A stretch of DNA of 45,013 bases, filler included, from an uncultured virus (IMG/VR IMGVR_UViG_2049941000_000291) (taxonomy: Duplodnaviria; Heunggongvirae; Uroviricota; Caudoviricetes). It is 11 parts of one record of this genome, joined end to end, with 100 filler letters (N's around TTAATTAATTAA, not from the genome) between each part and the next. Parts side by side here need not be neighbours in the genome. Positions count along the whole stretch, not along the records: positions 1 to 2,498 come from IMGVR_UViG_2049941000_000291; positions 2,599 to 5,608 come from IMGVR_UViG_2049941000_000291; positions 5,709 to 6,476 come from IMGVR_UViG_2049941000_000291; positions 6,577 to 25,367 come from IMGVR_UViG_2049941000_000291; positions 25,468 to 31,093 come from IMGVR_UViG_2049941000_000291; positions 31,194 to 33,597 come from IMGVR_UViG_2049941000_000291; positions 33,698 to 34,602 come from IMGVR_UViG_2049941000_000291; positions 34,703 to 35,949 come from IMGVR_UViG_2049941000_000291; 3 more parts are not named here. One strand, 5' to 3'. Positions 162 through 44,442 of this stretch are shown one piece after another. The notes beneath the pieces were generated by a model. That model made no database searches, was not told where the DNA came from, and was given only the letters and a program-made list of their open reading frames with translations. The translations under genes were made by a program, and so were the position numbers. How positions within the stretch are numbered: the first letter of the stretch is position 1; every line of letters starts with the position of its first letter.

Positions 162-209
162 ACTGGTTCTGATCCGGCGGGGCTGCCTCGCCGGGTTATT
201 CCTTTTATA
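162..209 (+). promoter_or_regulatory. Element copy, strong hairpin
   Basis: ACTGG 162, CCGGCGGGG-CTG-CCTCGCCGG, TATTCC; directly after TAA. Confidence 0.8.
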
Positions 210-226
210 CAACCAAGGAGTTAAAC

Positions 227-742
227 ATGAGCGTTATCTACAAGAACATCCACAATGCAACATTTGACACCGCGAACGCATTCCTCGAATGCCGCGCTCG
301 CGAAGCTGGTCGCCAGAATTTCGAGTTCGACAAGGCGTACACCTATCTGAACACTGAAGTCGTCAGCGAAGGCAAGACTATCGAGTGCGTGTACTTTGAG
401 CACAAGGCGAGCCGCCGCAGTATCGGCGTGACCGTCGAGGACGGCGAGGTCACGAAGGTAATGGTATACGACACGAACGGCGACTGTCTGAACGTCAAGC
501 TTAACAGCGCAGACAAGATTCGCAAGAACCCCAAGGACTTCTTCAAGCAGACCTTGACGCCCAAGAAATACAGCGCGTCGGCGAGCATTAACTTCACTAT
601 CGACGTCGAGTGCGAAGCCTACGACGAGGACGAAGCTCGCGAGAAGCTGGAAGAAGCAGCTTACAACACTTATCTTACTGCCGACCACGACGGCGTTGAC
701 GCTACTATCGAAGACATCAACGAAGACGGCGACGCAGAATAA
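227..742 (+). CDS. Hypothetical protein (171 aa)
   Basis: Complete ORF, AAGGAG SD, flanked by two element copies. Confidence 0.85.
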   Translation: MSVIYKNIHNATFDTANAFLECRAREAGRQNFEFDKAYTYLNTEVVSEGKTIECVYFEHKASRRSIGVTVEDGEVTKVMVYDTNGDCLNVKLNSADKIRKNPKDFFKQTLTPKKYSASASINFTIDVECEAYDEDEAREKLEEAAYNTYLTADHDGVDATIEDINEDGDAE

Positions 743-743
743 G

Positions 744-779
744 ACTGGCGACAACCCGGCGGGACTGCCTTGCCGGGTT
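744..779 (+). promoter_or_regulatory. Element copy, strong hairpin (cut by gap)
   Basis: AACCCGGCGGG-ACTG-CCTTGCCGGGTT after TAA. Confidence 0.75.
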
Positions 780-805
780 NNNNNNNNNNCACTGGATCCA
801 GCTGG

Positions 806-853
806 ACTAGACCTACTGCGGCGGGGTCAACCTCGCCGCTTATTTTTTATTTG
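806..853 (+). promoter_or_regulatory. Element copy
   Basis: ACTAG 806, GCGGCGGGG-TCAA-CCTCGCCGC, TATTTT, TGAACC. Confidence 0.8.
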
Positions 854-875
854 AACCTCAACCAAAGGAGCAATT

Positions 876-1141
876 ATGGGCGTACTAAAATCTTCTCAAG
901 AAATTAACAAGGCTTTCGGAGCTTACCATAACAAGTTCTATCCACGCCGGAAGATGTTGCCGTATGCGGCAAATGACCGAACCGGTGCAATATGGTTCTG
1001 CCAGATCGCCGTCAAGACCCATGACGAGGGTCTGAAGTGTCCGTTCTGCGGCGGAGCACCCAATCCGGATGACTGGTACAGCAAGGTCGAGTTCAGAGGC
1101 TATGACGATAAACGCCACCTCAACCTAGACCCGTACATCTT
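876..1141 (+). CDS. Hypothetical protein with CPFCGG motif (Lar-like zinc-ribbon half), truncated by gap
   Basis: SD plus ATG; LKCPFCGG resembles the N-terminus of the Lar restriction-alleviation family. Confidence 0.6.
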
Positions 1142-1312
1142 NNNNNNNNNNNNNNNNNNNNNNNNNNNNNNNNNNNNNNNNTATCCAGCTGGAAATCACC
1201 ACGGAACCAACCAAGGATCTGGAACTCTGGCANNNNNNNNNNGTGGTCATGTACGACGAGCCTCGTTCGGCCCATGAATACCACCCAGTCATCGAGGAAG
1301 AACTCAAGTAAG

Positions 1313-1360
1313 ACTGACCATAACCCAGCGGGGCCGACCTCGCTGGCTATTTTTATTTTG
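1313..1360 (+). promoter_or_regulatory. Element copy, strong hairpin
   Basis: CCAGCGGGG-CCGA-CCTCGCTGG, TATTTT, TGAACC; after TAA. Confidence 0.8.
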
Positions 1361-1381
1361 AACCTAAACAAAGGAGTTGAC

Positions 1382-1453
1382 ATGGGTGCAAGAATAATTT
1401 TTCAAGTCAAGCATAGAGGCGAAACCAGCAGCAAGTGCCTCGCCTACCTTTTC
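1382..1453 (+). CDS. Hypothetical protein, 5' fragment
   Basis: AAGGAG plus ATG (MGARIIFQVK...), runs into gap. Confidence 0.6.
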
Positions 1454-2624
1454 NNNNNNNNNNNNNNNNNNNNNNNNNNNNNNNNNNNNNNNNNNNNNNN
1501 NNNNNNNNNNNNNNNNNNNNNNNNNNNNNNNNNNNNNNNNNNNNNNNNNNNNNNNNNNNNNNNNNNNNNNNNNNNNNNNNNNNNNNNNNNNNNNNNNNNN
1601 NNNNNNNNNNNNNNNNNNNNNNNNNNNNNNNNNNNNNNNNNNNNNNNNNNNNNNNNNNNNNNNNNNNNNNNNNNNNNNNNNNNNNNNNNNNNNNNNNNNN
1701 NNNNNNNNNNNNNNNNNNNNNNNNNNNNNNNNNNNNNNNNNNNNNNNNNNNNNNNNNNNNNNNNNNNNNNNNNNNNNNNNNNNNNNNNNNNNNNNNNNNN
1801 NNNNNNNNNNNNNNNNNNNNNNNNNNNNNNNNNNNNNNNNNNNNNNNNNNNNNNNNNNNNNNNNNNNNNNNNNNNNNNNNNNNNNNNNNNNNNNNNNNNN
1901 NNNNNNNNNNNNNNNNNNNNNNNNNNNNNNNNNNNNNNNNNNNNNNNNNNNNNNNNNNNNNNNNNNNNNNNNNNNNNNNNNNNNNNNNNNNNNNNNNNNN
2001 NNNNNNNNNNNNNNNNNNNNNNNNNNNNNNNNNNNNNNNNNNNNNNNNNNNNNNNNNNNNNNNNNNNNNNNNNNNNNNNNNNNNNNNNNNNNNNNNNNNN
2101 NNNNNNNNNNNNNNNNNNNNNNNNNNNNNNNNNNNNNNNNNNNNNNNNNNNNNNNNNNNNNNNNNNNNNNNNNNNNNNNNNNNNNNNNNNNNNNNNNNNN
2201 NNNNNNNNNNNNNNNNNNNNNNNNNNNNNNNNNNNNNNNNNNNNNNNNNNNNNNNNNNNNNNNNNNNNNNNNNNNNNNNNNNNNNNNNNNNNNNNNNNNN
2301 NNNNNNNNNNNNNNNNNNNNNNNNNNNNNNNNNNNNNNNNNNNNNNNNNNNNNNCAAGGGCTACGACAATGAACGTCAGCTGAACACCCAGCCGTACATC
2401 GTCGGCGAGGGAAGCTGCTCGAAGTGCGGCAAGTACTGGGTAGTGACCGATAACGTCGTCAAGGACGGCGCTGTCGTCCGCTTCGAGCAGCCGAGGACNN
2501 NNNNNNNNNNNNNNNNNNNNNNNNNNNNNNNNNNNNNNNNNNTTAATTAATTAANNNNNNNNNNNNNNNNNNNNNNNNNNNNNNNNNNNNNNNNNNNNAA
2601 TCGCTTGCAAAGGCCCTTACCGCC

Positions 2625-3443: not shown

Positions 3444-3466
3444 ACTGGCTCGTGACTGGCGGGGCC
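3444..3466 (+). promoter_or_regulatory. Element copy (cut by gap)
   Basis: ACTGGCTCGTGACTGGCGGGGCC. Confidence 0.7.
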
Positions 3467-5897: not shown

Positions 5898-5945
5898 ACT
5901 GGCTCGTGACTGGCGGGGCTGACCTCGTGCCCTATCTATTCTATG
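5898..5945 (+). promoter_or_regulatory. Element copy, weak hairpin
   Basis: ACTGG-N6-ACTGGCGGGGCTGACCTCG, TATCTA. Confidence 0.8.
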
Positions 5946-5982
5946 TCCAATTCGTTTCACCCATCAACCAAAGGAGTTATCT

Positions 5983-7391: not shown

Positions 7392-7439
7392 ACTGGCGTG
7401 AGACTGGCGAGGCTGATCCCGGCGACTATTCTTTCTATG
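7392..7439 (+). promoter_or_regulatory. Element copy, decayed hairpin
   Basis: ACTGG-N6-ACTGGCGAGGCTGATCC, TATTCT. Confidence 0.8.
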
Positions 7440-7873
7440 AAGTTTAACCGCCACCATAAAGGAGTTTNNNNNNNNNNGCCAGCTTTTGCAAGTATCTATC
7501 CCTATGAACGGCGTCGATATGACTATCCGCGTTCGATACAGAAAATTAACTATTGTCGCCAATAATAAAGTCGATGCTAAAGAGGGCTTCTGTCGTTACA
7601 TTGTCGAAGAGGACAAGCTGGACAAGACTATCCCAGCTAAAACACTGGTCTTTTGGGTGAGCCAGCTGATAGAATACTGGAGCTTTATCCGTACCAGTTT
7701 AGACGACNNNNNNNNNNNNNNNNNNNNNNNNNNNNNNNNNNNNNNNNNNNNNNNNNNNNNNNNNNNNNNNNNNNNNNNNNNNNNNNNNNNNNNNNNNNNN
7801 NNNNNNNNNNNNNNNNNNNNNNNNNNNNNNNNNNNNNNNNNNNNNNNNNNNNNNNNNNNNNNNNNNNNNCACA

Positions 7874-7921
7874 ACTGGCTGACGACTGGCGGGGCTGACC
7901 TCGACGACTATTTATTCTATG
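7874..7921 (+). promoter_or_regulatory. Element copy upstream of radC
   Basis: ACTGG-N6-ACTGGCGGGGCTGACCTCG, TATTTA. Confidence 0.8.
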
Positions 7922-7948
7922 CAACCACTTAACGAAAAGGAGTTTAAG

Positions 7949-10753: not shown

Positions 10754-10801
10754 ACTGGCGATGAACCGGCGAGGCTGACCTCGTCGGTTATTTGCTATAT
10801 G
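10754..10801 (+). promoter_or_regulatory. Element copy, strong hairpin
   Basis: AACCGGCGAGG-CTGA-CCTCGTCGGTT, TATTTG. Confidence 0.8.
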
Positions 10802-10823
10802 CACCCAACAACAAGGAGTTGAT

Positions 10824-12139: not shown

Positions 12140-12187
12140 ACTGGAACGGATCCGGCGGGGCTGACCTCGGCGCGTATCTATCCTATG
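12140..12187 (+). promoter_or_regulatory. Element copy, decayed hairpin
   Basis: ACTGG...GCGGGGCTGACCTCGG, TATCTA, TGAACC. Confidence 0.8.
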
Positions 12188-12207
12188 AACCTAACAAGGA
12201 GTTGAAT

Positions 12208-12893: not shown

Positions 12894-12913
12894 ATTTGTT
12901 GTTNNNNNNNNNN

Positions 12914-12960
12914 CTGGTCACATACCAGCGGGGCTGACCTCGTCGGTTATTATTTCTATG
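12914..12960 (+). promoter_or_regulatory. Element copy
   Basis: CTGG...GCGGGGCTGACCTCG, TATTAT, TGAACC. Confidence 0.8.
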
Positions 12961-12983
12961 AACCTATAGCAAAGGAGTTGAAG

Positions 12984-13441: not shown

Positions 13442-13489
13442 ACTGGCCGACGACTGGCGAGGCTGACCTTGTCTTTTATTCTTTCTATG
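13442..13489 (+). promoter_or_regulatory. Element copy, weak hairpin
   Basis: ACTGG-N6-ACTGGCGAGGCTGACC, TATTCT. Confidence 0.8.
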
Positions 13490-13512
13490 AACTCAACAAC
13501 AAGGAGTTGAAT

Positions 13513-14463
13513 ATGGAATTGGAAGAATTTAAATCCATTTGCCAGTCCAACGGACTGGTTTGCGTTGAAAACGATAACGACGAAATCGTTACATTTTCGT
13601 ATATGCTTGACCAGCGTATCGGTCTGGTCTATGCGAAATGGGATGCTTGCGACGAAGACGACTCGACGAATGTCTCTGTATCTTTGTCTGAATTTCATTC
13701 GCTCTTTTCGAGCTTCGAAAGTCAAGATACCTCGTGTAGCCGTGCGACTGCTGAATGGCTTGACAACGCCCTTAAGGAAGCTATTGCCGAAGCGACAAAG
13801 GCGGACAATGCTGGCAAGCAAGGCGACATTAGCTTGCTCGAATTGCGTAAGCTTTTAAGTCTGTTCCGTTACGGTTCGGACAATTTGGACAAGTTGCTTA
13901 GTGAAATACGGCTGCCGATTAGCTTACTANNNNNNNNNNAATTCTACGCTAAAGTTCTTGAATTGCCCACAACTATTCAAGACTATCGTTTTAACTGCCC
14001 ACAGTTTAATGTTCGTCTGGGCTACATCCATAACGACCACAACGGCAAGGTAGATTATAGCCGTGTGGCGGAGATTAAGAACAAGAAGCTTCGAAGCCAG
14101 GCTCGTGCCCTGTATGAACTGGTGGAACAGACGGCGGCGATTATCTGGACGCTTCTCGATATGCCTCTCAAGGAATACGGACTGACCGTCAAGAAAGCCA
14201 TCGAGCTTATCGAAACGGAAGAGTATCGCAAGTGTGCTTTGGCTACTTGGGACGAATGGGAATCCTATGCCAATCCACGGCTTACCGTGGATATTAGGAC
14301 GCGTATCTTGTCTATGCAAGTCATTCCTAAAGGGCTTGAATTTAGCAGCAACATGACCCAAGCAACGGTTGATAAATGGTGCAAGAAGTTCGGTTTGACT
14401 ACTTGGTATGAATGGACGCCACGCAAGGTCAAAGACGAGTACGGCAACACCATCTATCAATAG
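13513..14463 (+). CDS. Hypothetical protein(s); 10-N join at 13930
   Basis: SD plus ATG at 13513; may be two genes. Confidence 0.65.
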   Translation: MELEEFKSICQSNGLVCVENDNDEIVTFSYMLDQRIGLVYAKWDACDEDDSTNVSVSLSEFHSLFSSFESQDTSCSRATAEWLDNALKEAIAEATKADNAGKQGDISLLELRKLLSLFRYGSDNLDKLLSEIRLPISLLXXXXFYAKVLELPTTIQDYRFNCPQFNVRLGYIHNDHNGKVDYSRVAEIKNKKLRSQARALYELVEQTAAIIWTLLDMPLKEYGLTVKKAIELIETEEYRKCALATWDEWESYANPRLTVDIRTRILSMQVIPKGLEFSSNMTQATVDKWCKKFGLTTWYEWTPRKVKDEYGNTIYQ

Positions 14464-14499
14464 TACACCGACGGCGGGTCTGATCCCGCCGGGTATTTT
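14459..14499 (+). promoter_or_regulatory. Variant element copy with hairpin, overlapping a stop codon
   Basis: CGGCGGG-TCTGAT-CCCGCCG, TATTTT at the conserved offset. Confidence 0.65.
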
Positions 14500-14554: not shown

Positions 14555-14602
14555 ACTGGTTCGGATCTGGCGGGGCTGACCCGGTTATCTATCTTTACTA
14601 TG
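14555..14602 (+). promoter_or_regulatory. Element copy, decayed hairpin
   Basis: ACTGG...GCGGGGCTGACCC, TATCTT, TGCACC. Confidence 0.8.
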
Positions 14603-14635
14603 CACCACTTAAACACTTAACCATAAGGAGTTACA

Positions 14636-15272: not shown

Positions 15273-15320
15273 ACTGGCACACTTCCGGCGGGCCTGACCT
15301 CTCTGGATATATTTTATTTG
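15273..15320 (+). promoter_or_regulatory. Element copy, imperfect hairpin
   Basis: ACTGGCAC...GCGGGCCTGACC, TATATT. Confidence 0.75.
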
Positions 15321-15347
15321 ACCCTCAACCACAACAAGGAGTTATCT

Positions 15348-17632: not shown

Positions 17633-17643
17633 CACTTTTTTGG

Positions 17644-17674
17644 TTTACATTTCAATTTTTAAAAGCGATATAAT
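17644..17674 (+). promoter_or_regulatory. sigma70-like promoter
   Basis: TTTACA...GCGATATAAT in AT-rich DNA; the downstream gene lacks the repeated element. Confidence 0.6.
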
Positions 17675-17985: not shown

Positions 17986-18033
17986 ACTGGCTGTCTGACG
18001 GCGGGGCCTACCTCGCCGTCTATTCTTTATATG
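17986..18033 (+). promoter_or_regulatory. Element copy, strong hairpin
   Basis: GACGGCGGGG-CCTA-CCTCGCCGTC, TATTCT, TGAACC. Confidence 0.85.
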
Positions 18034-19441: not shown

Positions 19442-19464
19442 AACCTAACAGCAAGGAGTTATCC

Positions 19465-26247: not shown

Positions 26248-26271
26248 AACCTCAACCAAAAGGAGTTATCT

Positions 26272-26803: not shown

Positions 26804-26838
26804 ACTGGATGAATACTGGCGGGGGCGGCCCCGCCCGG
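26804..26838 (+). promoter_or_regulatory. Element copy (cut by gap)
   Basis: ACTGG-N6-ACTGGCGGGG-GCGG-CCCCGCC after TAA. Confidence 0.7.
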
Positions 26839-30541: not shown

Positions 30542-30589
30542 ACTAGCTCGACGGCGGCGGGGCCTACCTCGTCGCATATTCTTTATTCG
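30542..30589 (+). promoter_or_regulatory. Element copy upstream of spoVG
   Basis: ACTAG; GCGGCGGGG-CCTA-CCTCGTCGC, TATTCT. Confidence 0.85.
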
Positions 30590-30612
30590 AACCTCAACCA
30601 AAGGAGTTCAGT

Positions 30613-30981
30613 ATGTCTGAAACAAAAAATAAAACTGTCGTCAAGTTTAAGTCTAACACTACTGGCAAAACTGAAGAATGCACCGTGGAACAGAAGCCGT
30701 TCGACTGTCTTCAAGTCACTTCCGTCCAAGTCTATCCGTTCAAGGAAGGCGCGTATAAGGGCCACATGGTAGGGCTCGCGACGGTGGTTCTCAACGACCA
30801 GCTCCAGATCCGCAGCCTCCGCATCATGGACGGCGCGAACGGTCTGTTCGTGGCCTATCCGCACGACTCGCAAGACGAGGATTTCAAATCCATCGTTCTT
30901 CCGATTACTCGCGTCTTGCGCGAGCATATCGAGGCTTGTGTACTGGAGAAGTACCAGTACGAGAAGTCGCTCGGCAACTAG
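30613..30981 (+). CDS. spoVG: SpoVG-family nucleic-acid-binding protein
   Basis: VTSVQVYP...LATVVLNDQLQIRSLRIMDGANGLFVAYP...FKSIVLPITRVLREHIEACVLEKY matches the SpoVG pattern. Confidence 0.9.
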   Translation: MSETKNKTVVKFKSNTTGKTEECTVEQKPFDCLQVTSVQVYPFKEGAYKGHMVGLATVVLNDQLQIRSLRIMDGANGLFVAYPHDSQDEDFKSIVLPITRVLREHIEACVLEKYQYEKSLGN

Positions 30982-31024
30982 CTCGACGGCGGCGGGGCCT
31001 ACCTCGCCGCCTATTCTTTATTTG
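30977..31024 (+). promoter_or_regulatory. Element copy downstream of spoVG, near-identical to 30542
   Basis: GGCGGCGGGG-CCTA-CCTCGCCGCC, TATTCT; contains the spoVG stop codon. Confidence 0.85.
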
Positions 31025-31241
31025 AACCTCAACCAAGGAGTTACTATGGCAACCAAGTTTGCTCTCGTGAAATTTAATCTTAATATTCAGGGCNNNNNNN
31101 NNNNNNNNNNNNNNNNNNNNNNNNNNNNNNNNNNNNNTTAATTAATTAANNNNNNNNNNNNNNNNNNNNNNNNNNNNNNNNNNNNNNNNNNNNGCAGAAA
31201 CCGACGACGAGGACGAGGACAGCGAGCTTCACTCCGAACGC

Positions 31242-31715: not shown

Positions 31716-31718
31716 AAT

Positions 31719-31758
31719 ACTGTAACGGCGGCGGGGCTGACCTCGCCGCTTATTTTTT
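31719..31758 (+). promoter_or_regulatory. Element copy with hairpin, upstream box degenerate
   Basis: GCGGCGGGG-CTGA-CCTCGCCGC, TATTTT. Confidence 0.7.
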
Positions 31759-32000: not shown

Positions 32001-32048
32001 ACTGGTCGGCTCCACGCGGGGCCGATCTTTTCCTTTATCCTTGATATG
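32001..32048 (+). promoter_or_regulatory. Element copy without hairpin
   Basis: ACTGG-N10-GCGGGGCCGATC, TATCCT, TGCAC at the exact offsets. Confidence 0.75.
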
Positions 32049-32080
32049 CACTCATTCAACCACTAACAAGGAGTTATCCT

Positions 32081-32835: not shown

Positions 32836-32845
32836 NNNNNNNNNN

Positions 32846-32885
32846 TCCGGTGGCGAGGCTGACCTCGTGAAATATTTATTTTATG
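32846..32885 (+). promoter_or_regulatory. Element copy (5' end in gap)
   Basis: GCGAGG-CTGA-CCTCGT, TATTTA, TGAACC. Confidence 0.7.
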
Positions 32886-32906
32886 AACCTAAACCAAGGA
32901 GTTAAC

Positions 32907-33473: not shown

Positions 33474-33521
33474 ACTGGCACGGATCCGGCGGGGCTGACC
33501 TTGAATAAGAATTTTTCCGTG
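33474..33521 (+). promoter_or_regulatory. Element copy, decayed hairpin
   Basis: ACTGGCACGGATCCGGCGGGGCTGACC...TGAACC. Confidence 0.75.
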
Positions 33522-33697
33522 AACCAAAAGGAGTTACCTATGTTGCATATTGACAGAACCGATTTTTGCTCGGTTTATACCGTGATGCCGCTGATAGNNN
33601 NNNNNNNNNNNNNNNNNNNNNNNNNNNNNNNNNNNNNNNNNTTAATTAATTAANNNNNNNNNNNNNNNNNNNNNNNNNNNNNNNNNNNNNNNNNNNN

Positions 33698-33992
33698 GTA
33701 CGGCGAGGAACACAAGCTGGACTTGAGCCAGACCGAGAACGCCCTGGCAGCCGTCCGGTATGCTGGCGAGCAGATGTACGGACACTGCGTCTGGAACGGT
33801 GGAACTGTAAGCGACGACGAAGACCCGAAGTTCCTCGCCGCGACGGAAGAGAACCGCCGTTATCGCTCGCTGCACCCTCAATGGACTGACTGGGGCAATC
33901 CGGAGGCCATTACATGCTTCTACGGTACTGGCGACGACTATCCGAACTACATCTACGGCTGGTGCGAGGACGCGTACGTAATGTATGTGTAA
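33698..33992 (+). CDS. Hypothetical protein, 3' part
   Basis: Open frame ending ...YVMYV*. Confidence 0.65.
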
Positions 33993-34038
33993 TGGCAATT
34001 AGCTCGCGGGGCCGACCTCGCGGGCTATTTCTTAAGTG
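33991..34038 (+). promoter_or_regulatory. Element copy, strong hairpin
   Basis: AATGG; AGCTCGCGGGG-CCGA-CCTCGCGGGCT, TATTTC. Confidence 0.8.
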
Positions 34039-34059
34039 AACCTCAATCAAGGAGTTGTT

Positions 34060-34775: not shown

Positions 34776-34823
34776 ACTGGACGTGACCCAGCGGGGCTGA
34801 CCCACTGGGTTATCTTTCTTGTG
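34776..34823 (+). promoter_or_regulatory. Element copy
   Basis: ACCCAGCGGG-GCTGA-CCCACTGGGT, TATCTT. Confidence 0.8.
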
Positions 34824-34856
34824 CAACTGTTCAACCAATCAACCAAGGAGTTTAAA

Positions 34857-35618: not shown

Positions 35619-35822
35619 ATGAAGCTTTCAGATCTTTCCGCAGAACAGAAACTGGAACTCAAGCAGAACTTGCTTGAAAAGAAAAACGAAGCCAAGGGAG
35701 AAGGAACTTCCTACGGCGAGCTTGCTGACGCAGACCAGCTCGTGACCGACGCAGAACTCGAAGCCGAATACGGTAACACCGAATTTACTGGCGACGACTT
35801 CTGCTGCACGGCTGGCAAGTAA
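35619..35822 (+). CDS. Small acidic protein (67 aa)
   Basis: AAGGAG SD. Confidence 0.8.
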   Translation: MKLSDLSAEQKLELKQNLLEKKNEAKGEGTSYGELADADQLVTDAELEAEYGNTEFTGDDFCCTAGK

Positions 35823-35869
35823 CTGGAAGTGACCCAGCGGGGCTGACCCACTGGGTTATTTTTATTTTG
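35822..35869 (+). promoter_or_regulatory. Element copy, near-identical to 34776
   Basis: TAACTGG; ACCCAGCGGG-GCTGA-CCCACTGGGT, TATTTT. Confidence 0.8.
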
Positions 35870-36050
35870 CACTTATTCAAGGAGCTTGATATGGCCGAAT
35901 TTGAAAAATCTTGCTATTACTGCAAGCATTTCCACAAGCCGAACCGCGTNNNNNNNNNNNNNNNNNNNNNNNNNNNNNNNNNNNNNNNNNNNNTTAATTA
36001 ATTAANNNNNNNNNNNNNNNNNNNNNNNNNNNNNNNNNNNNNNNNNNNNC

Positions 36051-36213: not shown

Positions 36214-36591
36214 GATACAAACCACGAACCGTACCGTATCACCAACGACTGGGAGATCGAAAACCTCGACTACTACAAGCAGAACGACAGCGACTACCCG
36301 ACGGACGAGCAGATCCGCGACTTCATGATCGAACTCAACGAAGCCCAGCCCAAGTCGGAACAGATGCCCAACAGCTTCATGTTCGAAGAAAGGCCGAGCC
36401 TCGACTCGCTCAAGGTCGGAGACAAGGTTCTCTGGTTTGACGACGTGTGGGAAACTTACAAGGAAGGCACCGTCCGTGGAAAGAACACCAGCGGTGAATG
36501 GGCCATTCATCGTTACAAGGGATCTCCGAAAGACTGGAAGACCAACGCCAACTGCTCCCTTGCAAGTATCAACTTCCGTCTGGTAAAATAA
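36214..36591 (+). CDS. Hypothetical protein, 3' part
   Basis: LKVGDKVLW...; open frame. Confidence 0.65.
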   Translation, partial: DTNHEPYRITNDWEIENLDYYKQNDSDYPTDEQIRDFMIELNEAQPKSEQMPNSFMFEERPSLDSLKVGDKVLWFDDVWETYKEGTVRGKNTSGEWAIHRYKGSPKDWKTNANCSLASINFRLVK

Positions 36592-36637
36592 TGGGAACTG
36601 TCCGGCGGGGCCGACCTCGCCGGACATTTTTGTATTG
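36590..36637 (+). promoter_or_regulatory. Element copy, 12-bp hairpin
   Basis: TGTCCGGCGGGG-CCGA-CCTCGCCGGACA, CATTTT. Confidence 0.85.
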
Positions 36638-36664
36638 CGGTTCAACCAACAAGGAGATTCAATC

Positions 36665-37501: not shown

Positions 37502-37993
37502 ATGAACTACCAGACTGTTAAGGCTATGGTGCAAGAAGCTTACGATAGCGGCGTCGCCGTCATCCATTACTCTGGAATGAACAGCGGCGGCCTCGCGTCC
37601 AGCAGCGACAACTCTATCACCGTTTTTCTAACTCGCTATCCAAAAATGGCTGACGAAAAAGAAAAGCAATCCAGATATGATGACATGGTCGCTGCCCTCA
37701 AGGCCGGAAACAAGAAGTTCAACATAAAAAAATTCTTTGACAAGATTGAGGTCAAGGAAGGCTATCTGAAAGTCACCATCAACCATCTGATGCGGCAAGA
37801 CGAATCCAACGGAGCCCTGGCGGCGACTGACGACTTGACTGCTGGCGACGAGTACTCTAGCAGATACGCTACAGACTACGTGTCGTCCGTCAAGTACGGT
37901 TACAGCCATTGCAACTATAGCACCAAAAATGGCGAACGCCTTCACTCGGTGCTGATACCGTTTGAAAATCTGCTCTACATCAACGTAAAATAA
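37502..37993 (+). CDS. Hypothetical protein (163 aa)
   Basis: Complete ORF with SD. Confidence 0.85.
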   Translation: MNYQTVKAMVQEAYDSGVAVIHYSGMNSGGLASSSDNSITVFLTRYPKMADEKEKQSRYDDMVAALKAGNKKFNIKKFFDKIEVKEGYLKVTINHLMRQDESNGALAATDDLTAGDEYSSRYATDYVSSVKYGYSHCNYSTKNGERLHSVLIPFENLLYINVK

Positions 37994-38040
37994 CTGGATA
38001 ACTGGCGGCGGGGCTGACCTCGCCGCTTATTTGTAATTCG
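37993..38040 (+). promoter_or_regulatory. Element copy, strong hairpin
   Basis: TAACTGG; GCGGCGGGG-CTGA-CCTCGCCGC, TATTTG. Confidence 0.8.
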
Positions 38041-38066
38041 GCTTCAACCAATAAGGAGACTAACAA

Positions 38067-38406: not shown

Positions 38407-38706
38407 ATGCTCAAACTCTTGAAACTCATCGTCGCAATCATCATCGTCGTGGCAGTCTACGCCGTGTTCAACCTCGCCTCTGATTCCACCAAGGAATCCG
38501 CCAAGAAGGCGACTACCGAACTCGTCAAGTCCGCCACCGATTCCCTCACCAAGAAAGCCAAGGCGACTGCCGCCGAAGCCGCCGACAAGGCTGCCGACAA
38601 GCTCAAGGAAGTAGCTACCGAAGCTACCGACTCAGCTGCCAAGACGGTCAAGGCAAGGATCGGCGACGTCAGAAAGGAAAACAACAAGAAGTTCCAGAAG
38701 AAATAA
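38407..38706 (+). CDS. Membrane-anchored Ala/Lys/Thr-rich helical protein
   Basis: MLKLLKLIVAIIIVVAVYAVF followed by low-complexity amphipathic repeats. Confidence 0.8.
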   Translation: MLKLLKLIVAIIIVVAVYAVFNLASDSTKESAKKATTELVKSATDSLTKKAKATAAEAADKAADKLKEVATEATDSAAKTVKARIGDVRKENNKKFQKK

Positions 38707-38754
38707 CTGGATCCAGACTGGCGGGGCTGACCTCGCCGGATCATTTTATTTGTG
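38706..38754 (+). promoter_or_regulatory. Element copy, strong hairpin
   Basis: TAACTGG; CTGGCGGGG-CTGA-CCTCGCCGG, CATTTT shifted by 1 nt. Confidence 0.8.
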
Positions 38755-38771
38755 TCAACCAAGGAGACATC

Positions 38772-39951: not shown

Positions 39952-39999
39952 ACTGGTTCCAGACTGGCGAGGCCGACCTCGCCAGTCATTTTTCCTACG
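39952..39999 (+). promoter_or_regulatory. Element copy, perfect hairpin
   Basis: GACTGGCGAGG-CCGA-CCTCGCCAGTC, CATTTT. Confidence 0.85.
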
Positions 40000-40028
40000 A
40001 CTCAACCACAATTAAAAGGAGTAATATC

Positions 40029-41030: not shown

Positions 41031-41300
41031 CTGGAACTCATATCGGACGATGAAATCGAATCCAGTGAGTTCAACGAAAACACGGCAGAAGTCTCCAAGG
41101 CACTCGCCAAGCTCAACGTCGCAGCGTTCAAGAAGGGCGTCGATCTCACCATCTGCTCCGTCTATAACGATTGCGAGGCCGACATCAAGTTCGCACTCAA
41201 TTCCTCGGCGATCCAAATCACGCTGTCAGACGCTGGTAAGAAAATGCTCGACAAGCTCGGCGTCTCTGGAACTGTCCGCTTGGCAGATCTCGATTCCTAA
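41031..41300 (+). CDS. Hypothetical protein, 3' part (frame not in ORF track)
   Basis: LELISDDE...LDKLGVSGTVRLADLDS*; TAA overlaps the element's ACTGG. Confidence 0.7.
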   Translation: MELISDDEIESSEFNENTAEVSKALAKLNVAAFKKGVDLTICSVYNDCEADIKFALNSSAIQITLSDAGKKMLDKLGVSGTVRLADLDS

Positions 41301-41347
41301 CTGGTTCCAGACTGGCGGGGCCATCCTCGCCAGTCATTTATTTTGTG
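41300..41347 (+). promoter_or_regulatory. Element copy, strong hairpin
   Basis: GACTGGCGGGG-CCAT-CCTCGCCAGTC, CATTTA. Confidence 0.85.
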
Positions 41348-41512
41348 CATCAACTATTCAACCAAAGGAGCTTTATATGAATCTTTCCAAAATCGTCTCA
41401 GCAGAACATGACCTCAGAATCCGCGCTTGGTACTCCGAAAACGGCATCGCACTCGGTTCCTATACCAAGCAGAACTNNNNNNNNNNATCACACAAACCAA
41501 GGAGATTCTATC

Positions 41513-42079: not shown

Positions 42080-42127
42080 ACTGGCGGCAGCCTCACGGGG
42101 CTGCTGCCTTCTTTTATTTTTATCACA
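42080..42127 (+). promoter_or_regulatory. Element copy with shifted-register hairpin
   Basis: ACTGG-N11-CGGGGCTG, TATTTT at the conserved offset; hairpin GGCGGCAGCCT-CAC-GGGGCTGCTGCC region. Confidence 0.7.
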
Positions 42128-42147
42128 CAAACCAAGGAGAATCAATC

Positions 42148-42587: not shown

Positions 42588-42611
42588 AGACGGCGGTTTC
42601 GCCGTCTTTCT
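42588..42611 (+). terminator. Intrinsic terminator
   Basis: AGACGGCG-GTTT-CGCCGTCT-TTCT. Confidence 0.65.
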
Positions 42612-42631
42612 GCTGGCGTCCCTACGAGGCG

Positions 42632-42679
42632 ACTGACAGAAATCTGGCGGGACTGCCCCTTTCTGATATAATTTCTACA
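42632..42679 (+). promoter_or_regulatory. Element copy with perfect TATAAT -10, no hairpin
   Basis: ACTGA 42632, GCGGGACTGCC, TATAAT 42667-42672 at the conserved offset. Confidence 0.8.
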
Positions 42680-42703
42680 CAAGCCAACCAAAAGGAGTTT
42701 ACT

Positions 42704-43101
42704 ATGGCACTGTTTCATGAAGACACCAAAACCGTCACACCTAGCGGCCTCGATACCGTGCAGCCGTTCGACCGCGAGAAGCACACCTACGGCTTCAGCC
42801 TCGCTGGCAACATCAAGGTAGGCCGTATCGCCACCTGGTCGACGCTGCTCGGCGACTACACCTACAAGGGTCTCAGCGGACTCCTGGAAGACATCAAGGG
42901 CACGTGCAAGAACTGCGCTGCGTGCAAGAAGAGCTGCTACGTCAGAGCTTCCTACCGCTTCCCTGGCGTCGTCCAGTCCCAGGCGATCAACACGTGGGGT
43001 CTCCGTCACGAACTCAAGAAGGTCGAGGCCGACCTTGCGAAGCAGATCGAACGTCGCCACATCAAGATCGCTCGTATCAACCAGTCTGGCGAACTCGAAA
43101 A
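42704..43101 (+). CDS. Second GP88-like protein, 5' part
   Basis: GNIKVGRIATWSTLLGDYT...IKGTCKNCAACKKSCYVR...RINQSGE, paralogous to 28428. Confidence 0.75.
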
Positions 43102-43567
43102 NNNNNNNNNNNNNNNNNNNNNNNNNNNNNNNNNNNNNNNNNNNNTTAATTAATTAANNNNNNNNNNNNNNNNNNNNNNNNNNNNNNNNNNNNNNNNNNN
43201 NGCGGCCTACTCGGTTGATTCCAGGGTCGTCTCCGTCCAATAAACTGCTAACAACAAGGAGCTTTATATGAACTTCGCCGACCCCATCGCTTGGTACGCA
43301 CATGACCAAGCCCGTAGACAACAAAACCGTATCGATAATCAGAAGATCCTCTTCCGTCGNNNNNNNNNNTGGCTTTCCGGAGATGTTGGTTCGAATCCAG
43401 CTCGGCCCACTAAAAAAGATCTGCATACACGGAAGCGAAGTGGCGATAGATCTCCAACACCGTGTAGCAAGTGACTGGGAGACGGATCGCCCAGACGAGT
43501 CAGTCACAGCAGATCTTACAATTTTTTAATGCTCCCTGGTTAACAGCGCCAGTTGGCCGACGTGCTG

Positions 43568-43615
43568 ACTGGCGCTTCTCTCACGGGGCTGCCTCTCTGA
43601 TCGATTCTATATACA
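43568..43615 (+). promoter_or_regulatory. Degenerate element copy
   Basis: ACTGG-N11-CGGGGCTGCC; SD and ATG at 43634 follow. Confidence 0.6.
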
Positions 43616-43633
43616 CCACCAAGGAGATCTAAT

Positions 43634-43783
43634 ATGGCTAAGAAATTCAATGTATTCCTCGACGTAACCATCAAGGTCAACACGTCCTACGAAGTCAACG
43701 CCAAGGACGCTGAGTCCGCAAAAGAAATTGCACAGGCGGCGGCGATTGCGCGACTCCGCGCAGAACATGCCGATCTGTCGCCG
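43634..43783 (+). CDS. Small hypothetical protein, truncated
   Basis: SD; YEVNAKDAESAKEIA. Confidence 0.7.
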
Positions 43784-43821
43784 NNNNNNNNNNACTGTTC
43801 GATAACGCAGTCGCTGAAGAC

Positions 43822-44031
43822 ATGATCGAGTTCGACCATGGCTCAGTGGTAGTCAAGGCCGAACCTGGCCGAGTGGTAGCACACTTCAACCATCATCCGG
43901 ATCTGTTCCAGACTATTCCGTTCAATGCTGCTTATCTCACCAGTAACAAGAAGGCTCTCGAACGTACCCTGACACAAGCTTGGCAGTACGTCAACAGCCC
44001 TACTCGCATTACCGACATTCCCCACTTCTAA
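43822..44031 (+). CDS. Hypothetical protein
   Basis: 69-aa ORF; start may be in gap. Confidence 0.55.
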   Translation: MIEFDHGSVVVKAEPGRVVAHFNHHPDLFQTIPFNAAYLTSNKKALERTLTQAWQYVNSPTRITDIPHF

Positions 44032-44085
44032 GATTTTTTAATGCTCCGTGGTTGGAAAGCTCCAGATCCTCCGGGNNNNNNNNNN

Positions 44086-44442
44086 AAAATCAAGTCTACC
44101 CTGTGCGAACCAGACCGTGGAGTCTTCGACGACTACCCAGAAGGAACCAAGACCCGTACATTCTTTATCCGTAACGAAGAGGCCAACACCGAAATAACCG
44201 CCATGGTAATCTTCTTGCCGGACGGAAACCGTCTCTTCCGATACATCACCAGTAGGCTCGGCGAACGACTGATGGCGTACACTGCCGCCGAAGTCTGCAC
44301 TATCCACGCCTTCAACTGCTGGCTCTCTGAACACAGGGACAAGCTCTACCCGACTGGCGACCATCCGGCGGGACTGCCTCTCGACCAGATTGAAGGATAC
44401 GTCGATCAACCTACAACAAACAAACAAGGAGAAAACTCATGA
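44086..44442 (+). CDS. Hypothetical protein, 3' part
   Basis: Open frame overlapping the next ATG (ATGA). Confidence 0.6.
   Translation, partial: KIKSTLCEPDRGVFDDYPEGTKTRTFFIRNEEANTEITAMVIFLPDGNRLFRYITSRLGERLMAYTAAEVCTIHAFNCWLSEHRDKLYPTGDHPAGLPLDQIEGYVDQPTTNKQGENS
44353..44400 (+). promoter_or_regulatory. Degenerate element copy inside a CDS
   Basis: ACTGG-N10-GCGGGACTGCCTC; no TAT box. Confidence 0.5.

What the first reader, a model, noticed from the sequence alone, without database searches (positions are those of the whole stretch)
162..44400. About 44 copies of a rigidly phased, non-canonical promoter-like element in front of many genes and short operons
Seen: ACTGG-N10-GCG(G/A)GG-CYGA-CC-N8-TATYYT-N5-YR then an AAC-rich leader and AAGGAG. 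Copies start at 162, 744, 806, 1313, 3444, 5898, 7392, 7874, 10754, 12140, 12914, 13442, 14459, 14555, 15273, 17986, 18788, 19394, 19900, 20028, 22000, 22736, 23623, 25588, 26200, 26804, 30542, 30977, 31719, 32001, 32846, 33474, 33991, 34776, 35822, 36590, 37993, 38706, 39952, 41300, 42080, 42632, 43568 and 44353. The bases between the boxes vary freely, but the spacing is almost invariant: core C at +16, TAT at +35, purine at +47. Established: sigma70-family -10 hexamers sit at -12..-7 from a YR start. This geometry fits exactly, and the 42632 copy reads TATAAT there. The -35 position holds (C/G)(C/T)GGCG rather than TTGACA, with a conserved GC box at about -31..-21 and ACTGG at -47..-43. Inference: a promoter class needing an element-encoded activator, sigma factor or RNA polymerase, conceptually like T4 MotA-dependent middle promoters. 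It would coordinate dozens of small genes. I do not recognise this consensus.
Basis: partly seen in the sequence, partly recalled or inferred. Interest (0 to 1): 0.88.

Follow-up and report, generated by a model that had tools for sequence, protein, structure and literature searches.

The report
Phage terminator-promoter cassettes between small genes
About 44 copies of a rigidly spaced 60-base element separate the small accessory genes of an uncultured rumen T4-like giant phage, and each copy most likely ends transcription of the gene before it, restarts it for the gene after it, and serves as a crossover point for swapping genes.

Summary
All 44 listed copies share an ungapped skeleton: ACTGG at 0-4, CGGG inside a GC box at 16-19, TAT at 35-37 and a purine at 47. 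A PWM finds 41 on the + strand, 0 on the - strand and none in shuffles.

That makes it an intrinsic terminator in about 60% of copies. The weak-hairpin copies keep the motif and spacing, and most have a separate terminator just upstream. So the motif has a function at the DNA level that does not depend on the hairpin, most likely a promoter.

A looser pattern found the same element in a 348-kb T4-like jumbo phage record, G001: 71-74 copies, one strand, all in one 65-kb block. G001 also has canonical sigma70-type promoters, a separate late motif, a gp55-type late sigma and two full-length sigma70-family factors. It has no detectable MotA, AsiA or RNA polymerase.

Sister phages keep the skeleton but carry different GC cores. 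Copies are crossover points for cassette exchange.

Verdict: a PeSL-like composite terminator-promoter with a non-sigma70 consensus. Dependence on a phage sigma is inferred, not shown. No 5' ends were mapped.

The parts
162..221 (+). element copy, strong hairpin (-21.1 kcal/mol), CTGC-type core
744..779 (+). element copy, 3' part lost in an N run
806..865 (+). element copy, strong hairpin (-18.5) plus T-run
1313..1372 (+). element copy, strong hairpin (-16.4)
3444..3466 (+). element copy cut by N; a separate terminator-like hairpin lies just upstream (about 3393-3420)
5898..5957 (+). element copy, weak hairpin (-9.5)
7392..7451 (+). element copy, weak hairpin (-8.9); GGGGCGAAAGCCCC plus T-run terminator about 30 nt upstream
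7874..7933 (+). element copy, weak hairpin (-6.5); upstream is N
10754..10813 (+). element copy, strong hairpin (-19.1)
12140..12199 (+). element copy, weak hairpin (-11.5); independent terminator at 12069-12086
12913..12972 (+). element copy, first base masked by N
13442..13501 (+). element copy, weak hairpin (-8.8); independent terminator at 13401-13418
14459..14499 (+). hairpin plus T-run variant without ACTGG (terminator-like, -17.3)
14555..14614 (+). element copy, weak hairpin (-11.1), behind the 14459 hairpin
15273..15332 (+). element copy, weak hairpin (-8.4); independent terminator at 15221-15246
17986..18045 (+). element copy, strong hairpin (-19.7)
18785..18844 (+). element copy, 5' end masked by N
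19394..19453 (+). element copy, weak hairpin (-11.8); independent terminator at 19354-19367
19900..19959 (+). element copy, weak hairpin (-11.9); independent terminator at 19834-19849
20028..20087 (+). element copy, hairpin -14.9
22000..22059 (+). element copy, strong hairpin (-16.7)
22736..22795 (+). element copy, hairpin -15.4, also has an upstream tetraloop hairpin
23623..23682 (+). element copy, perfect 10-bp stem (-22.5)
25588..25611 (+). element copy cut by N
26200..26259 (+). element copy, weak hairpin (-8.1); independent terminator at 26160-26173
26804..26838 (+). element copy cut by N
30542..30601 (+). element copy, strong hairpin (-16.0), before the SpoVG-like gene
30977..31036 (+). 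element copy, strong hairpin (-22.0)
31716..31758 (+). element copy, ACTG displaced by 3 bases, strong hairpin (-19.5), 3' part N
32001..32060 (+). element copy whose hairpin forms in another register (pos 3-12 with 17-26; -18.4) while the motif stays in phase
32838..32897 (+). element copy, 5' end masked by N
33474..33533 (+). element copy, weak hairpin (-6.5); independent terminator at 33435-33448
33991..34050 (+). element copy, strong hairpin (-20.7), AATGG variant overlapping a TAA stop
34776..34835 (+). element copy, strong hairpin (-18.8)
35822..35881 (+). element copy, strong hairpin (-18.8)
36590..36649 (+). element copy, 12-bp stem (-23.5)
37993..38052 (+). element copy, strong hairpin (-19.4); strain junctions at pos 0 and pos 37; crossed by an RNA-library contig
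38706..38765 (+). element copy (-17.3); parent of the L178 chimera; one RNA-library contig starts at its +47
39952..40011 (+). element copy, 11-bp stem (-22.7), before the C5 methylase gene; second parent of the L178 chimera
41300..41359 (+). element copy, 11-bp stem (-21.2); strain junctions at pos 0 (three forms)
42080..42139 (+). element copy, hairpin in another register (pos 3-13 with 18-28; -22.4)
42632..42691 (+). element copy, weak hairpin (-9.2), TATAAT at +35; independent hairpin at 42592-42606
43568..43627 (+). element copy, weak hairpin (-10.0); near-identical copy in G001 at 264954
44353..44412 (+). degenerate copy (11.6 bits), no TAT
17641..17674 (+). canonical sigma70-type promoter-like site (TTTACA-19-TATAAT) after a terminator, before gene 17706; not part of the element family
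20864..20897 (+). canonical class-1 promoter-like site (TTGCTC-17-TATATT with TGC before it), as in G001

Best explanation
The element is a composite terminator-promoter cassette in the hyperplastic accessory-gene block of an uncultured rumen T4-like jumbo phage. In architecture and in its role in evolution it is a PeSL analogue.

**Promoter function (DNA level; inferred).** A rigid skeleton is read as a promoter that is not the canonical sigma70 class: ACTGG at about -47, CGGG and the GC box at about -32 to -21, TAT(YYT) at about -12 to -7, and a purine start at +47 of the element.

**Terminator function (RNA level; shown by sequence statistics only).** In about 60% of copies the GC box and its flanks fold into a hairpin, and the T-rich -10 region supplies its U-tract. 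The promoter of one cassette is therefore also the terminator of the cassette before it. Where the outer stem is lost, a separate tetraloop terminator sits just upstream.

**Recombination function (shown).** The 48-bp conserved core is the crossover site by which cassettes are swapped between strains.

**What reads the promoter (inferred).** Host RNA polymerase core carrying a phage-encoded full-length sigma factor. The best candidate is the sigma shared across the clade (G001 L320:14688-15506, 272 aa). The G001-only sigma (L329:18197-18937, 246 aa) is second.
For: **The motif is real, strand-specific and phased**
- The window has 41 PWM hits on + and 0 on -.
- G001 has 74 forward, 0 reverse and 0 control pattern matches, and 71 versus 0 by PWM.

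**Hairpin**
- On 73 distinct copies, 77% of cells are paired against 37-49% when the partner is slid.
- There are 70 double-change cells against 30.7 +/- 5.1 in shuffles (0 of 500 shuffles reach it).
- 22 of 37 evaluable window copies fold at -15 kcal/mol or below, and 20 of those have at least 5 T in the next 9 bases.
- In G001, 34 of 71 fold at -15 or below, 29 of them with the T-run.
- The 11 best terminator calls in 30-45 kb are all element copies.

**The motif is independent of the hairpin**
- In the 28 weak-hairpin copies, ACTGG, GGCGGGGCTGACC, TAT, T41, T44, T46 and G47 are 79-100% conserved. The 3' arm (positions 28, 30-34) is free.
- 17 of 28 weak copies have their own upstream terminator, against 4 of 48 strong copies (p = 1.5e-6).
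- This was replicated in G001: 11 of 23 weak against 0 of 34 strong (p = 7e-6).
- 6 of 76 copies build the hairpin in another register while the motif stays in phase.

**A separate promoter class**
- G001 has a canonical TTG(A/C)CA-17-TATATT class: 20 exact TTGCTATATT sites and 42 PWM hits, of which only 3 lie in the element block.
- G001 also has a late motif, ACTGATAAACT, in the structural block.
- A sigma70 consensus scan finds no enrichment and no hit at the elements: 13 found against 9.7 +/- 2.8, and 12 against 9.8 +/- 2.8.

**Machinery in G001**
- Two full-length sigma70-family ORFs with regions 2 and 4.
- A gp55-type late sigma.
- No MotA, AsiA or RNA polymerase beta or beta'.

**Conservation across phages**
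- The skeleton ACTG-N12-CGGG-N16-AT gives 64, 14 and 10 forward matches in G001, G003 and G005, and 0-1 in the 17 other relatives.
- The GC core differs by lineage.

**Recombination**
- Contig L178 is a chimera of window copies 38706 and 39952, with the crossover inside the GC box.
- Strain junctions fall at element positions 0, 15, 37 and 54, and a 2091-base cassette deletion ends exactly at copy 41300.
- Cassette order differs between contigs.
- Only 3262 window bases align to G001, and all but one of the aligned segments fall inside its element block.
Against: - No transcript 5' or 3' ends were mapped. Only assembled contigs of RNA libraries could be laid.
- One such contig (X16 record 2, 37520-38713) runs straight through copy 37993. 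Only one contig starts at a predicted +1 (38753). Other contig ends fall elsewhere. DNA carry-over in those libraries cannot be excluded.
- The full TATYYT is present in only 18 of 42 copies.
- The sigma assignment is by elimination. The G001-only sigma cannot be required for the shared skeleton, because G003 (93% complete) has the element but no orthologue of it.
- The clade-wide sigma also occurs in 11 relatives that lack the element. Its region 2 looks like that of a primary sigma, so it could serve the canonical class instead.
- The GC core differs between sister phages. That is also what drift plus gene conversion of a mere terminator nucleus would give.
- The window itself holds no hallmark gene. 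Its T4-like nature rests on homology of the block to G001.
Confidence: 0.6

Rival explanations
1. It is an ordinary early promoter read by the host's own primary sigma, as in classical PeSLs. The host holoenzyme uses the good -10 (A at 36, T at 40). ACTGG and CGGG act as an upstream or -35 substitute, or as the site of a host or small phage activator. No phage sigma is needed.
For: - In T4-like phages, PeSL promoters are host sigma70 early promoters.
- The block encodes functions expected early in infection: ArdC-like, RadC and a DNA methylase.
- Two G001 copies carry TTGACA at positions 10-15 with TATATT 17 bp downstream, and they score as canonical promoters.
- A at 36 with T at 40 occurs in 29 of 42 copies.
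Against: - The same phages carry a well-defined canonical class (TTGACA-17-TATATT with TGC before it) in 19 of 20 relatives. The element differs from it at every -35 position.
- The consensus scans never call the elements.
- The element is restricted to one block and to one subclade.
- No match was real among 90 pattern hits in one genome each of 185,579 species.
Confidence: 0.2
2. It is only an intrinsic terminator family. The extra conservation (ACTGG, loop, TAT, leader) is kept by frequent gene conversion between copies rather than by a second function.
For: - There is strong covariation in the stem and a T-run after it.
- Crossovers inside the core are seen.
- The GC core drifts between sister phages.
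Against: - Copies that are poor terminators and sit behind an independent terminator keep the motif at 79-100% while their 3' arm is free.
- TAT stays at 35-37 whether the stem ends at 26, 29 or 36.
- ACTGG lies 7-10 unconstrained bases upstream of the stem yet is nearly invariant.
- The phasing is identical in three phages with different cores.
Confidence: 0.08
3. It is an RNA-level signal on long polycistronic transcripts. It would be either a processing site for a host or phage endoribonuclease, or a nut-like antitermination site (a linear box, a spacer, then a hairpin with a conserved loop).
For: - The layout (conserved linear ACTGG, free spacer, hairpin with a conserved loop) resembles boxA-boxB. 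This resemblance is recalled and comes from no call.
- An RNA-library contig crosses copy 37993.
Against: - In weak-hairpin copies the element lies between an independent terminator and the next gene. Little upstream RNA would contain it.
- The 3' arm is dispensable.
- No Rfam family matches at gathering score.
- 44-74 copies per genome is unlike nut sites.
Confidence: 0.07
4. ACTGG and the GC box are operator or stoperator-like sites for a phage repressor that silences the whole block. The promoter is only the -10 region.
For: The element is an oriented, many-copy intergenic motif, like the mycobacteriophage stoperators. This is recalled and comes from no call. A 17-bp repeat with more than 30 copies in Cluster O phages is on record (passages).
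Against: - The spacing to TAT and to the start is rigid in 41 of 44 copies, which fits one recognition unit.
- G001 is a T4-like virulent-type genome with no integrase or repressor family among the Pfam hits.
Confidence: 0.05

Closest known systems
PeSLs (promoter-early stem-loops) of T4-like myoviruses: RB49/phi1, T4/PST, KVP40/nt-1. Sources: PMC2839356 (passages read) and PMC4122927 (abstract and introduction read).
   Same: - Small composite promoter-terminator motifs that fill the gap from a stop codon to the next start, with the SD at the 3' end.
- Dense in hyperplastic regions full of ORFans.
- The stem-loop may overlap the promoter.
- Recombination between copies inserts, deletes and swaps cassettes. 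In RB49 the crossover was placed in the loop, as in L178 here.
- The host genome is a T4-like phage.
   Different: - PeSL promoters match the sigma70 consensus and have an AT-rich upstream region. Here there is no TTGACA and no AT-rich region, but ACTGG and a GC box in rigid phase.
- The same phage keeps a separate canonical class.
- The stem is itself part of the conserved recognition motif.
- The phage encodes full-length sigma factors.
- Promoter and terminator activity were measured for PeSLs. Nothing was measured here.
T4 MotA/AsiA-dependent middle promoters (recalled, from no call)
   Same: A good -10 hexamer plus a non-canonical box centred near -30 in place of the -35 hexamer, switching on a set of phage genes.
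   Different: - No MotA or AsiA family match in G001 at E <= 1.
- The box sequence is unrelated.
- There is an extra ACTGG at about -45.
- The box doubles as a terminator stem.
Bacterial intrinsic (rho-independent) terminators
   Same: A GC-rich stem of 8-12 bp and a 3-4-nt loop, with a T-run directly after it in about 60% of copies.
   Different: - The loop and 5' arm sequence, a box 10 bases upstream, and the exact position of TAT are conserved even where no terminator can form.
17-bp dyad repeat of Cluster O mycobacteriophages (PMC4351075, passages read)
   Same: More than 30 copies per genome, mostly intergenic, with deletions between copies.
   Different: That repeat is a perfect palindrome with no strand bias and no fixed link to a -10, SD or T-run.
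N4 virion RNA polymerase hairpin promoters (recalled, from no call)
   Same: A promoter containing a short GC hairpin.
   Different: - About 40% of copies lack a stable hairpin.
- No phage RNA polymerase was found.
- The distance from the loop to the putative start is about 24 nt.

Membership tests
PeSL (composite promoter-terminator cassette of T4-like phages) | Lies in a hyperplastic region of a T4-like myovirus | tested here: met
   G001 has gp23, gp20, the prohead protease, gp15, T4-type TerL, gp32 and PolB. Its element block at 232-297 kb holds small ORFans. The window aligns only to that block. The window itself has no hallmark gene.
PeSL (composite promoter-terminator cassette of T4-like phages) | Fills the intergenic gap from stop codon to next start, with the SD at its 3' end, on the coding strand | tested here: met
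   The upstream stop lies within 5 bases of ACTGG in 18 of 44 copies. The SD lies at +53..+73 and the ATG at +65..+85. All copies are on the + strand.
PeSL (composite promoter-terminator cassette of T4-like phages) | Promoter part matches the sigma70 consensus and has an AT-rich upstream region | tested here: not met
   The consensus scan calls no element. Positions 12-17 read CYGGCG, and the upstream part is ACTGG plus free bases.
PeSL (composite promoter-terminator cassette of T4-like phages) | Stable stem-loop acting as terminator or attenuator | tested here: met
   Covariation is shown. In the window, 22 of 37 copies fold at -15 kcal/mol or below; in G001, 34 of 71 do. A T-run follows. Activity was not measured.
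PeSL (composite promoter-terminator cassette of T4-like phages) | Recombination between copies shuffles the flanked ORFans | tested here: met
   L178 is a chimera. Junctions and a 2091-base deletion fall at copies. Cassette order differs between contigs.
PeSL (composite promoter-terminator cassette of T4-like phages) | Promoter and terminator activity in reporter assays | not testable with these tools
   Needs cloning and the unknown host.
Intrinsic terminator | GC-rich hairpin directly followed by a U-tract | tested here: met
   Met in 20 of 37 window copies and 29 of 71 G001 copies. Not met in 14 and 23 weak copies respectively.
Sigma70-family promoter (any sigma) | -10 hexamer with A at position 2 and T at position 6, 6-8 bases before a purine start | tested here: inconclusive
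   A36 with T40 occurs in 29 of 42 copies, and YR at 46/47 in 37 of 41. The start site is not mapped.
T4 MotA-dependent middle promoter | MotA and AsiA encoded by the phage | tested here: not met
   PF09114 and PF09010 give 0 matches at E <= 1 in G001, searched in six frames.
Phage-RNA-polymerase promoter (T7-like, N4-like, phiKZ-like) | Phage encodes its own RNA polymerase | tested here: not met
   PF00562 and PF00623 give 0 matches, and both controls rang in 14 of 14 genomes. PF00940 gives 0 matches, but its control was silent, so that search is uninformative.
Known RNA family (Rfam) | Match at gathering score | tested here: not met
   0 matches in the whole window.

The most novel reading that the evidence does not exclude
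A subclade of rumen T4-like jumbo phages runs its roughly 65-kb accessory-gene block on a private sigma-promoter pair. A phage-encoded full-length sigma would read a rigid ACTGG / CGGG-box / TAT promoter, whose box and -10 region are at the same time the stem and U-tract of the previous cassette's terminator. The box sequence would co-diversify with the sigma between sister phages: GCGGGGCTGACC, GCGGGRCTGCC, CCGGGYKTCCCC and CCGGGGCTCC. That would give each phage an orthogonal, insulated, plug-and-play cassette system.
Probability: 0.35. Interest if true: 0.75.

Novelty: new variant of a known kind. Interest (0 to 1): 0.58.

Why it matters
- If the promoter reading holds, this is a compact natural part in which one 48-bp sequence serves as terminator, promoter and recombination site. 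It would be tied to a phage sigma distinct from the host's.
- It would explain how a giant phage keeps about 90 fast-turning accessory and anti-defence genes individually insulated yet co-regulated.
- It would provide sets of related but distinct sigma-promoter pairs from sister phages.
- It extends the PeSL idea from coliphages and vibriophages to an uncultured rumen clade.
- It shows that the promoter half of such cassettes need not be a host-consensus promoter.
- Practically, the repeat explains why these genomes assemble into 1-4-kb fragments. It also gives a sequence tag for finding the accessory block in metagenomes.

Tried and rejected
- **Core 16-mer alone in IMG/VR.** It returned 118 or more loci. 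The two double hits were pentapeptide-repeat genes of GC-rich phages, so they are chance matches.
- **Strict 20-base pattern.** It gave 1 chance hit in IMG/VR. All 90 hits in species-representative genomes were chance: the best full PWM score was 26 bits against 38-69 for real copies, and no locus had two hits.
- **Megablast of 6 kb against GenBank phages:** no match.
- **tblastn of the GP88-like protein:** only 26-34% hits.
- **Whole genome of the window:** none held.
- **Earlier scan notes:** none, by place or by sequence.
- **Rfam and tRNA:** nothing.
- **Pfam and PHROGs on 48 window proteins:** only RadC+DUF3846, a C5 methylase, SpoVG, two GP88-like proteins and weak hits.
- **Other sigma classes.** Sigma54 (GG-N10-GC), sigma28 and Bacteroidetes -33/-7 readings of the motif were compared by eye and do not fit the spacing. 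The consensus sequences used were recalled.
- **Integron attC reading:** rejected. There is no GTTRRRY core (motif recalled), junctions are spread across the element, and each cassette has its own SD and leader.
- **RNA-library contigs.** They cannot show ends or strand. Parts without cover mean nothing. One contig starting at +47 of copy 38706 is a single coincidence.
- **Single-protein search for relatives of the G001-only sigma:** found only itself.
- **Early idea that this sigma's presence tracks the element:** dropped once G003 and G005 were found to carry variant elements without it.
- **Host.** The only lead is that the nearest SpoVG clusters in the protein atlas are commonest in Fibrobacterota and phages. 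This was not tested.
- **Motif strings in the paper library.** They occur in no phage or bacterial context: 37 papers hold at least one of the strings, and the 10 listed are all unrelated eukaryotic or viral work.

Full report
**1. What is in the window**

The window is a draft pseudomolecule. It has 9312 N in 76 runs, several of the form N44-TTAATTAATTAA-N44. Outside the N runs it is about 50% GC. It is filled with small + strand genes that have AAGGAG ribosome-binding sites. No tRNA and no Rfam family is present.

Of 48 proteins scanned, only a few have a family:
- RadC plus DUF3846
- a C5 DNA methylase
- SpoVG
- two GP88-like proteins

**2.

The 44 listed sites align without a single gap.

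| Feature | Count |
|---|---|
| ACTGG exact | 31 of 41 evaluable |
| ACTGG with at most 1 mismatch | 39 of 41 |
| GCGRGG | 36 of 44 |
| CYGA | 27 of 42 |
| CC | 31 of 42 |
| TAT at +35 | 32 of 42 |
| Full TATYYT | 18 of 42 |
| YR at +46/47 | 37 of 41 |

- A0, T2, C16, G17 and G19 never vary, while positions 5-11 carry almost no information.
- A PWM finds 41 copies on the + strand, none on the - strand and none in shuffles.
- The two halves are not found apart.
- Four listed starts are off by 1-8 bases because N runs mask their 5' ends. Four copies are cut by N. Site 14459 lacks ACTGG.

**3.

Positions 10-20 pair with 25-35. The test used 73 distinct copies, 35 from the window and 38 from related metagenome contigs:
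- 77% of cells pair, against 37-49% when the partner is slid by 1-3 columns.
- 70 cells carry a change on both sides, against 30.7 +/- 5.1 in shuffles (0 of 500 reach it) and 12-37 when slid.

Of 37 window copies free of N, 22 fold at -15 kcal/mol or below, and 20 of these have at least 5 T in the next nine bases. Fourteen are weaker than -12. The simple terminator scan puts element copies in its top 11 places in 30-45 kb. It finds 34 and 32 sites against 15 +/- 4 expected. In most copies the element is therefore a textbook intrinsic terminator for the gene before it.

**4. The motif is more than the hairpin**

Three results separate the two.

- *Conservation in weak copies.* In the 28 weak-hairpin copies (window plus relatives), ACTGG, GGCGGGGCTGACC, TAT, T41, T44, T46 and G47 are as conserved as in the 48 strong ones. 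The 3' arm (positions 28, 30-34) has lost all information.
- *Separate terminators.* Weak copies tend to have an unrelated tetraloop terminator 25-50 bases upstream: 17 of 28 against 4 of 48 (Fisher p = 1.5e-6). In the window alone it is 6 of 13 against 1 of 23 (p = 0.005). The tool's 5-bp rule and direct reading add four more window cases: 19354, 26160, 33435 and about 7349. Some rows are orthologues, so the counts are not all independent. In such copies the element lies between a terminator and the next gene, where the only plausible role is at the DNA level.
- *Alternative registers.* Six of 76 copies build their hairpin in another register, positions 3-13 with 18-28, using the conserved box as the 3' arm. 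ACTGG, CGGG and TAT stay in phase.

The fixed position of TAT, whether the stem ends at 26, 29 or 36, is not what a terminator needs. It is what a promoter needs.

**5. Where it comes from**

The strict pattern is absent from one genome each of 185,579 species. All 90 hits there are chance. It is nearly absent from IMG/VR. Sixteen of 106 metagenome hits are real, all on 0.5-4-kb contigs. The stretch is held by bovine and sheep gut runs of 11 studies.

A looser pattern hit a 348,092-bp IMG/VR contig, handle G001, estimated 91% complete. There the element occurs 74 times forward, 0 reverse and 0 in the control. All copies lie in 232,232-297,014. By PWM there are 71 copies, none on the other strand.

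The hairpin statistics repeat in G001:
- 34 of 71 copies are strong and 23 are weak.
- An independent upstream terminator occurs in 11 of 23 weak copies against 0 of 34 strong ones (p = 7e-6).

G001 is a T4-like jumbo myovirus. It has the gp23 capsid protein, gp20 portal, prohead protease, gp15, T4-type terminase, gp32, family B polymerase, a clamp loader and NrdD. Its element block holds ArdC-like, RadC, GP88, FtsK-like genes and ORFans. Only 3262 bases of the window align to G001, and all but one of the aligned segments fall inside that block. The window is therefore the same block of a sister phage, with mostly different cassettes.

**6. Three promoter-like classes and the machinery**

A k-mer census of G001 shows two more repeated motifs besides the element.

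| Class | Motif | Distribution in G001 | Across 20 long relatives (G001 included) |
|---|---|---|---|
| 1, canonical | TTG(A/C)CA-17-TATATT with TTGC before the -10 | 20 exact TTGCTATATT sites on both strands; 42 PWM hits, only 3 in the element block | 19 of 20 |
| 2, late-like | ACTGATAAACT | 11 sites, in front of genes of the structural block | Shared with the closest relatives only |
| 3, the element | ACTGG / GC box / TAT | 71-74 copies, + strand, 232-297 kb | See section 7 |

The window has two canonical-type sites of its own, at 17641 and 20864. Whatever RNA polymerase holoenzyme starts infection therefore reads ordinary promoters, and the element is a different class.

G001 has no MotA and no AsiA. 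It has no RNA polymerase beta or beta' domain. The T7-type search was uninformative because its control was silent.

G001 does have three sigma-like genes:
- a gp55-type late sigma, L325:18211-18969;
- a 272-aa full-length sigma70-family protein, L320:14688-15506, closest to primary sigmas;
- a 246-aa full-length sigma70-family protein, L329:18197-18937, closest to RpoS and group-3 sigmas.

The 246-aa gene lies behind a canonical promoter with no + strand terminator in between.

My ORF calls were crude, and 14 tile-crossing ORFs were not sent to Pfam. The six-frame family searches covered the whole record.

**7. Comparison across the clade**

The capsid protein found 64 related loci. Twenty long contigs were searched.

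| Query | Result |
|---|---|
| G001/window-type core | G001 only (64 matches) |
| Bare skeleton ACTG-N12-CGGG-N16-AT | 64 forward / 2 reverse in G001; 14/0 in G003; 10/0 in G005; 0-1 in the other 17 |
| 272-aa sigma | 14 of 20 contigs: 60% and 59% identical in G003 and G005, 26-42% in distant relatives |
| 246-aa sigma | No orthologue outside G001 |
| Sigma70 regions 2 and 4 in G003 and G005 | One full sigma each |

In G003 and G005 the matches sit at the contig ends. Read directly, G003 keeps ACTGG at 0-4, CGGG at 16-19, TAT at 35-37 and TATAC at 44-48. Its core is CCGGG(Y)(K)TCCCC; in G005 it is CCGGGGCTCC.

From this I draw three conclusions:
- The G001-only sigma cannot be required for the shared skeleton.
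- The clade-wide sigma is the better candidate, by elimination. The late motif goes with gp55 and the canonical class with the host sigma.
- This is inference, not proof. The clade-wide sigma could equally serve the canonical class.

**8. Recombination**

- Contig L178 equals window copy 38706 up to position 18 of the element and copy 39952 from position 22 on. It lacks the three genes between them.
- Contigs of RNA libraries diverge from the window at element position 0 (37993; 41300 in three forms) and at positions 15, 37 and 54. One contig joins 39208 directly to 41300.
- Other contigs show different cassette orders.

This is the behaviour described for PeSLs, where the RB49 crossover was placed in the loop.

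**9. What is shown and what is inferred**

Shown by sequence:
- the motif, its phasing and its strand bias;
- the covarying hairpin and T-run;
- the independence of motif and hairpin;
- the confinement to one block of a T4-like phage;
- the coexistence of canonical and late motifs;
- the sigma genes;
- the chimeric copies.

Inferred:
- that the motif is a promoter with its start at +47;
- that a phage sigma reads it.

Against the promoter reading:
- No ends were mapped.
- An RNA-library contig crosses copy 37993.
- Only one contig starts at a predicted +1.
- TATYYT is exact in fewer than half the copies.
- The lineage-specific core could reflect conversion of a terminator nucleus.

**10. Comparison with what is known, and novelty**

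The closest known kind is the PeSL of T4-like phages (PMC2839356, passages; PMC4122927, abstract and introduction). The element meets four defining features: T4-like hyperplastic region, intergenic position with SD, stem-loop, and recombination. It fails one, the sigma70-consensus promoter with an AT-rich upstream region. It works like a PeSL but is a variant with its own promoter consensus.

It resembles T4 middle promoters only in having a box near -30. MotA and AsiA are absent.

The motif strings occur in no relevant paper of the library. A search for repeated promoter-terminator motifs returned mainly the PeSL papers and the Cluster O repeat.

I rate it a new variant of a known kind, with interest 0.58.

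Noticed in passing
window 2499-2598, 5609-5708, 6477-6576, 25368-25467, 31094-31193, 33598-33697, 34603-34702, 35950-36049, 43102-43201, 44703-44802: Ten N44-TTAATTAATTAA-N44 linkers join separate scaffolds, yet all element copies face the same way. The pieces were therefore ordered and oriented, but the order across linkers is not proven.
   Followed up: partly
window 1182-1232 and 3030-3080; 4231-4525 and 32053-32347: Duplicated coding segments. They are either paralogous cassettes or an assembly duplication.
   Followed up: no
window 7349-7362, 19354-19367, 19834-19849, 26160-26173, 33435-33448: A second small family of near-identical tetraloop terminators (GGGGCGAAAGCCCC or GGGGCTTCGGCCCC plus a T-run). 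They sit just upstream of weak-hairpin element copies.
   Followed up: partly
window 17641-17984: The best canonical promoter-like site of the window (TTTACA-19-TATAAT, after a strong terminator) drives a basic 92-aa ORFan with no family. An element copy follows it directly.
   Followed up: no
G001 244440 and 247939 (L332): Two element copies carry TTGACA at positions 10-15 and TATATT 17 bp downstream. They look like hybrids of the element and the canonical promoter class.
   Followed up: no
G001 74-160 kb (L323-L328); G003: The late-like motif ACTGATAAACT lies before structural-block genes in G001 (11 sites) and G002 (10 sites). G003 has a variant repeated word, rc of GCAGTTTATA = TATAAACTGC, which is closer to the T4 late box (the T4 box is recalled).
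   Followed up: partly
G001 L320:8629-11619; L321:5949-7517: The T4-type large terminase carries a LAGLIDADG domain (intein or homing endonuclease). Nearby is an IS605 OrfB/TnpB-like gene, and next to it an ORF that Pfam calls TnsA-like but PHROGs calls a head closure protein.
   Followed up: no
G001 L320:16902-18038, L328:11391-12812, L330:5095-5967, L330:16826-18109, tRNA words at 163-180 kb: An RNA repair and maturation set is spread over the genome: RtcB, a TROVE/Ro-like protein, Thg1 and a CCA-adding-type nucleotidyltransferase. There is also a tRNA cluster. NAD salvage genes (NAPRTase, NAD synthase) are present too.
   Followed up: no
G001 252269 copy (L319 10001-10090): The leader of one copy holds a tandem CAATCAA run (ACAACAAACAATCAACAATCAACAATCAACAATCAAAAG) between the putative start and the SD.
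   Followed up: no
window 30613-30981: For the SpoVG-like protein, the nearest atlas clusters are commonest in Fibrobacterota and tailed phages. This is a weak lead to the host phylum.
   Followed up: no
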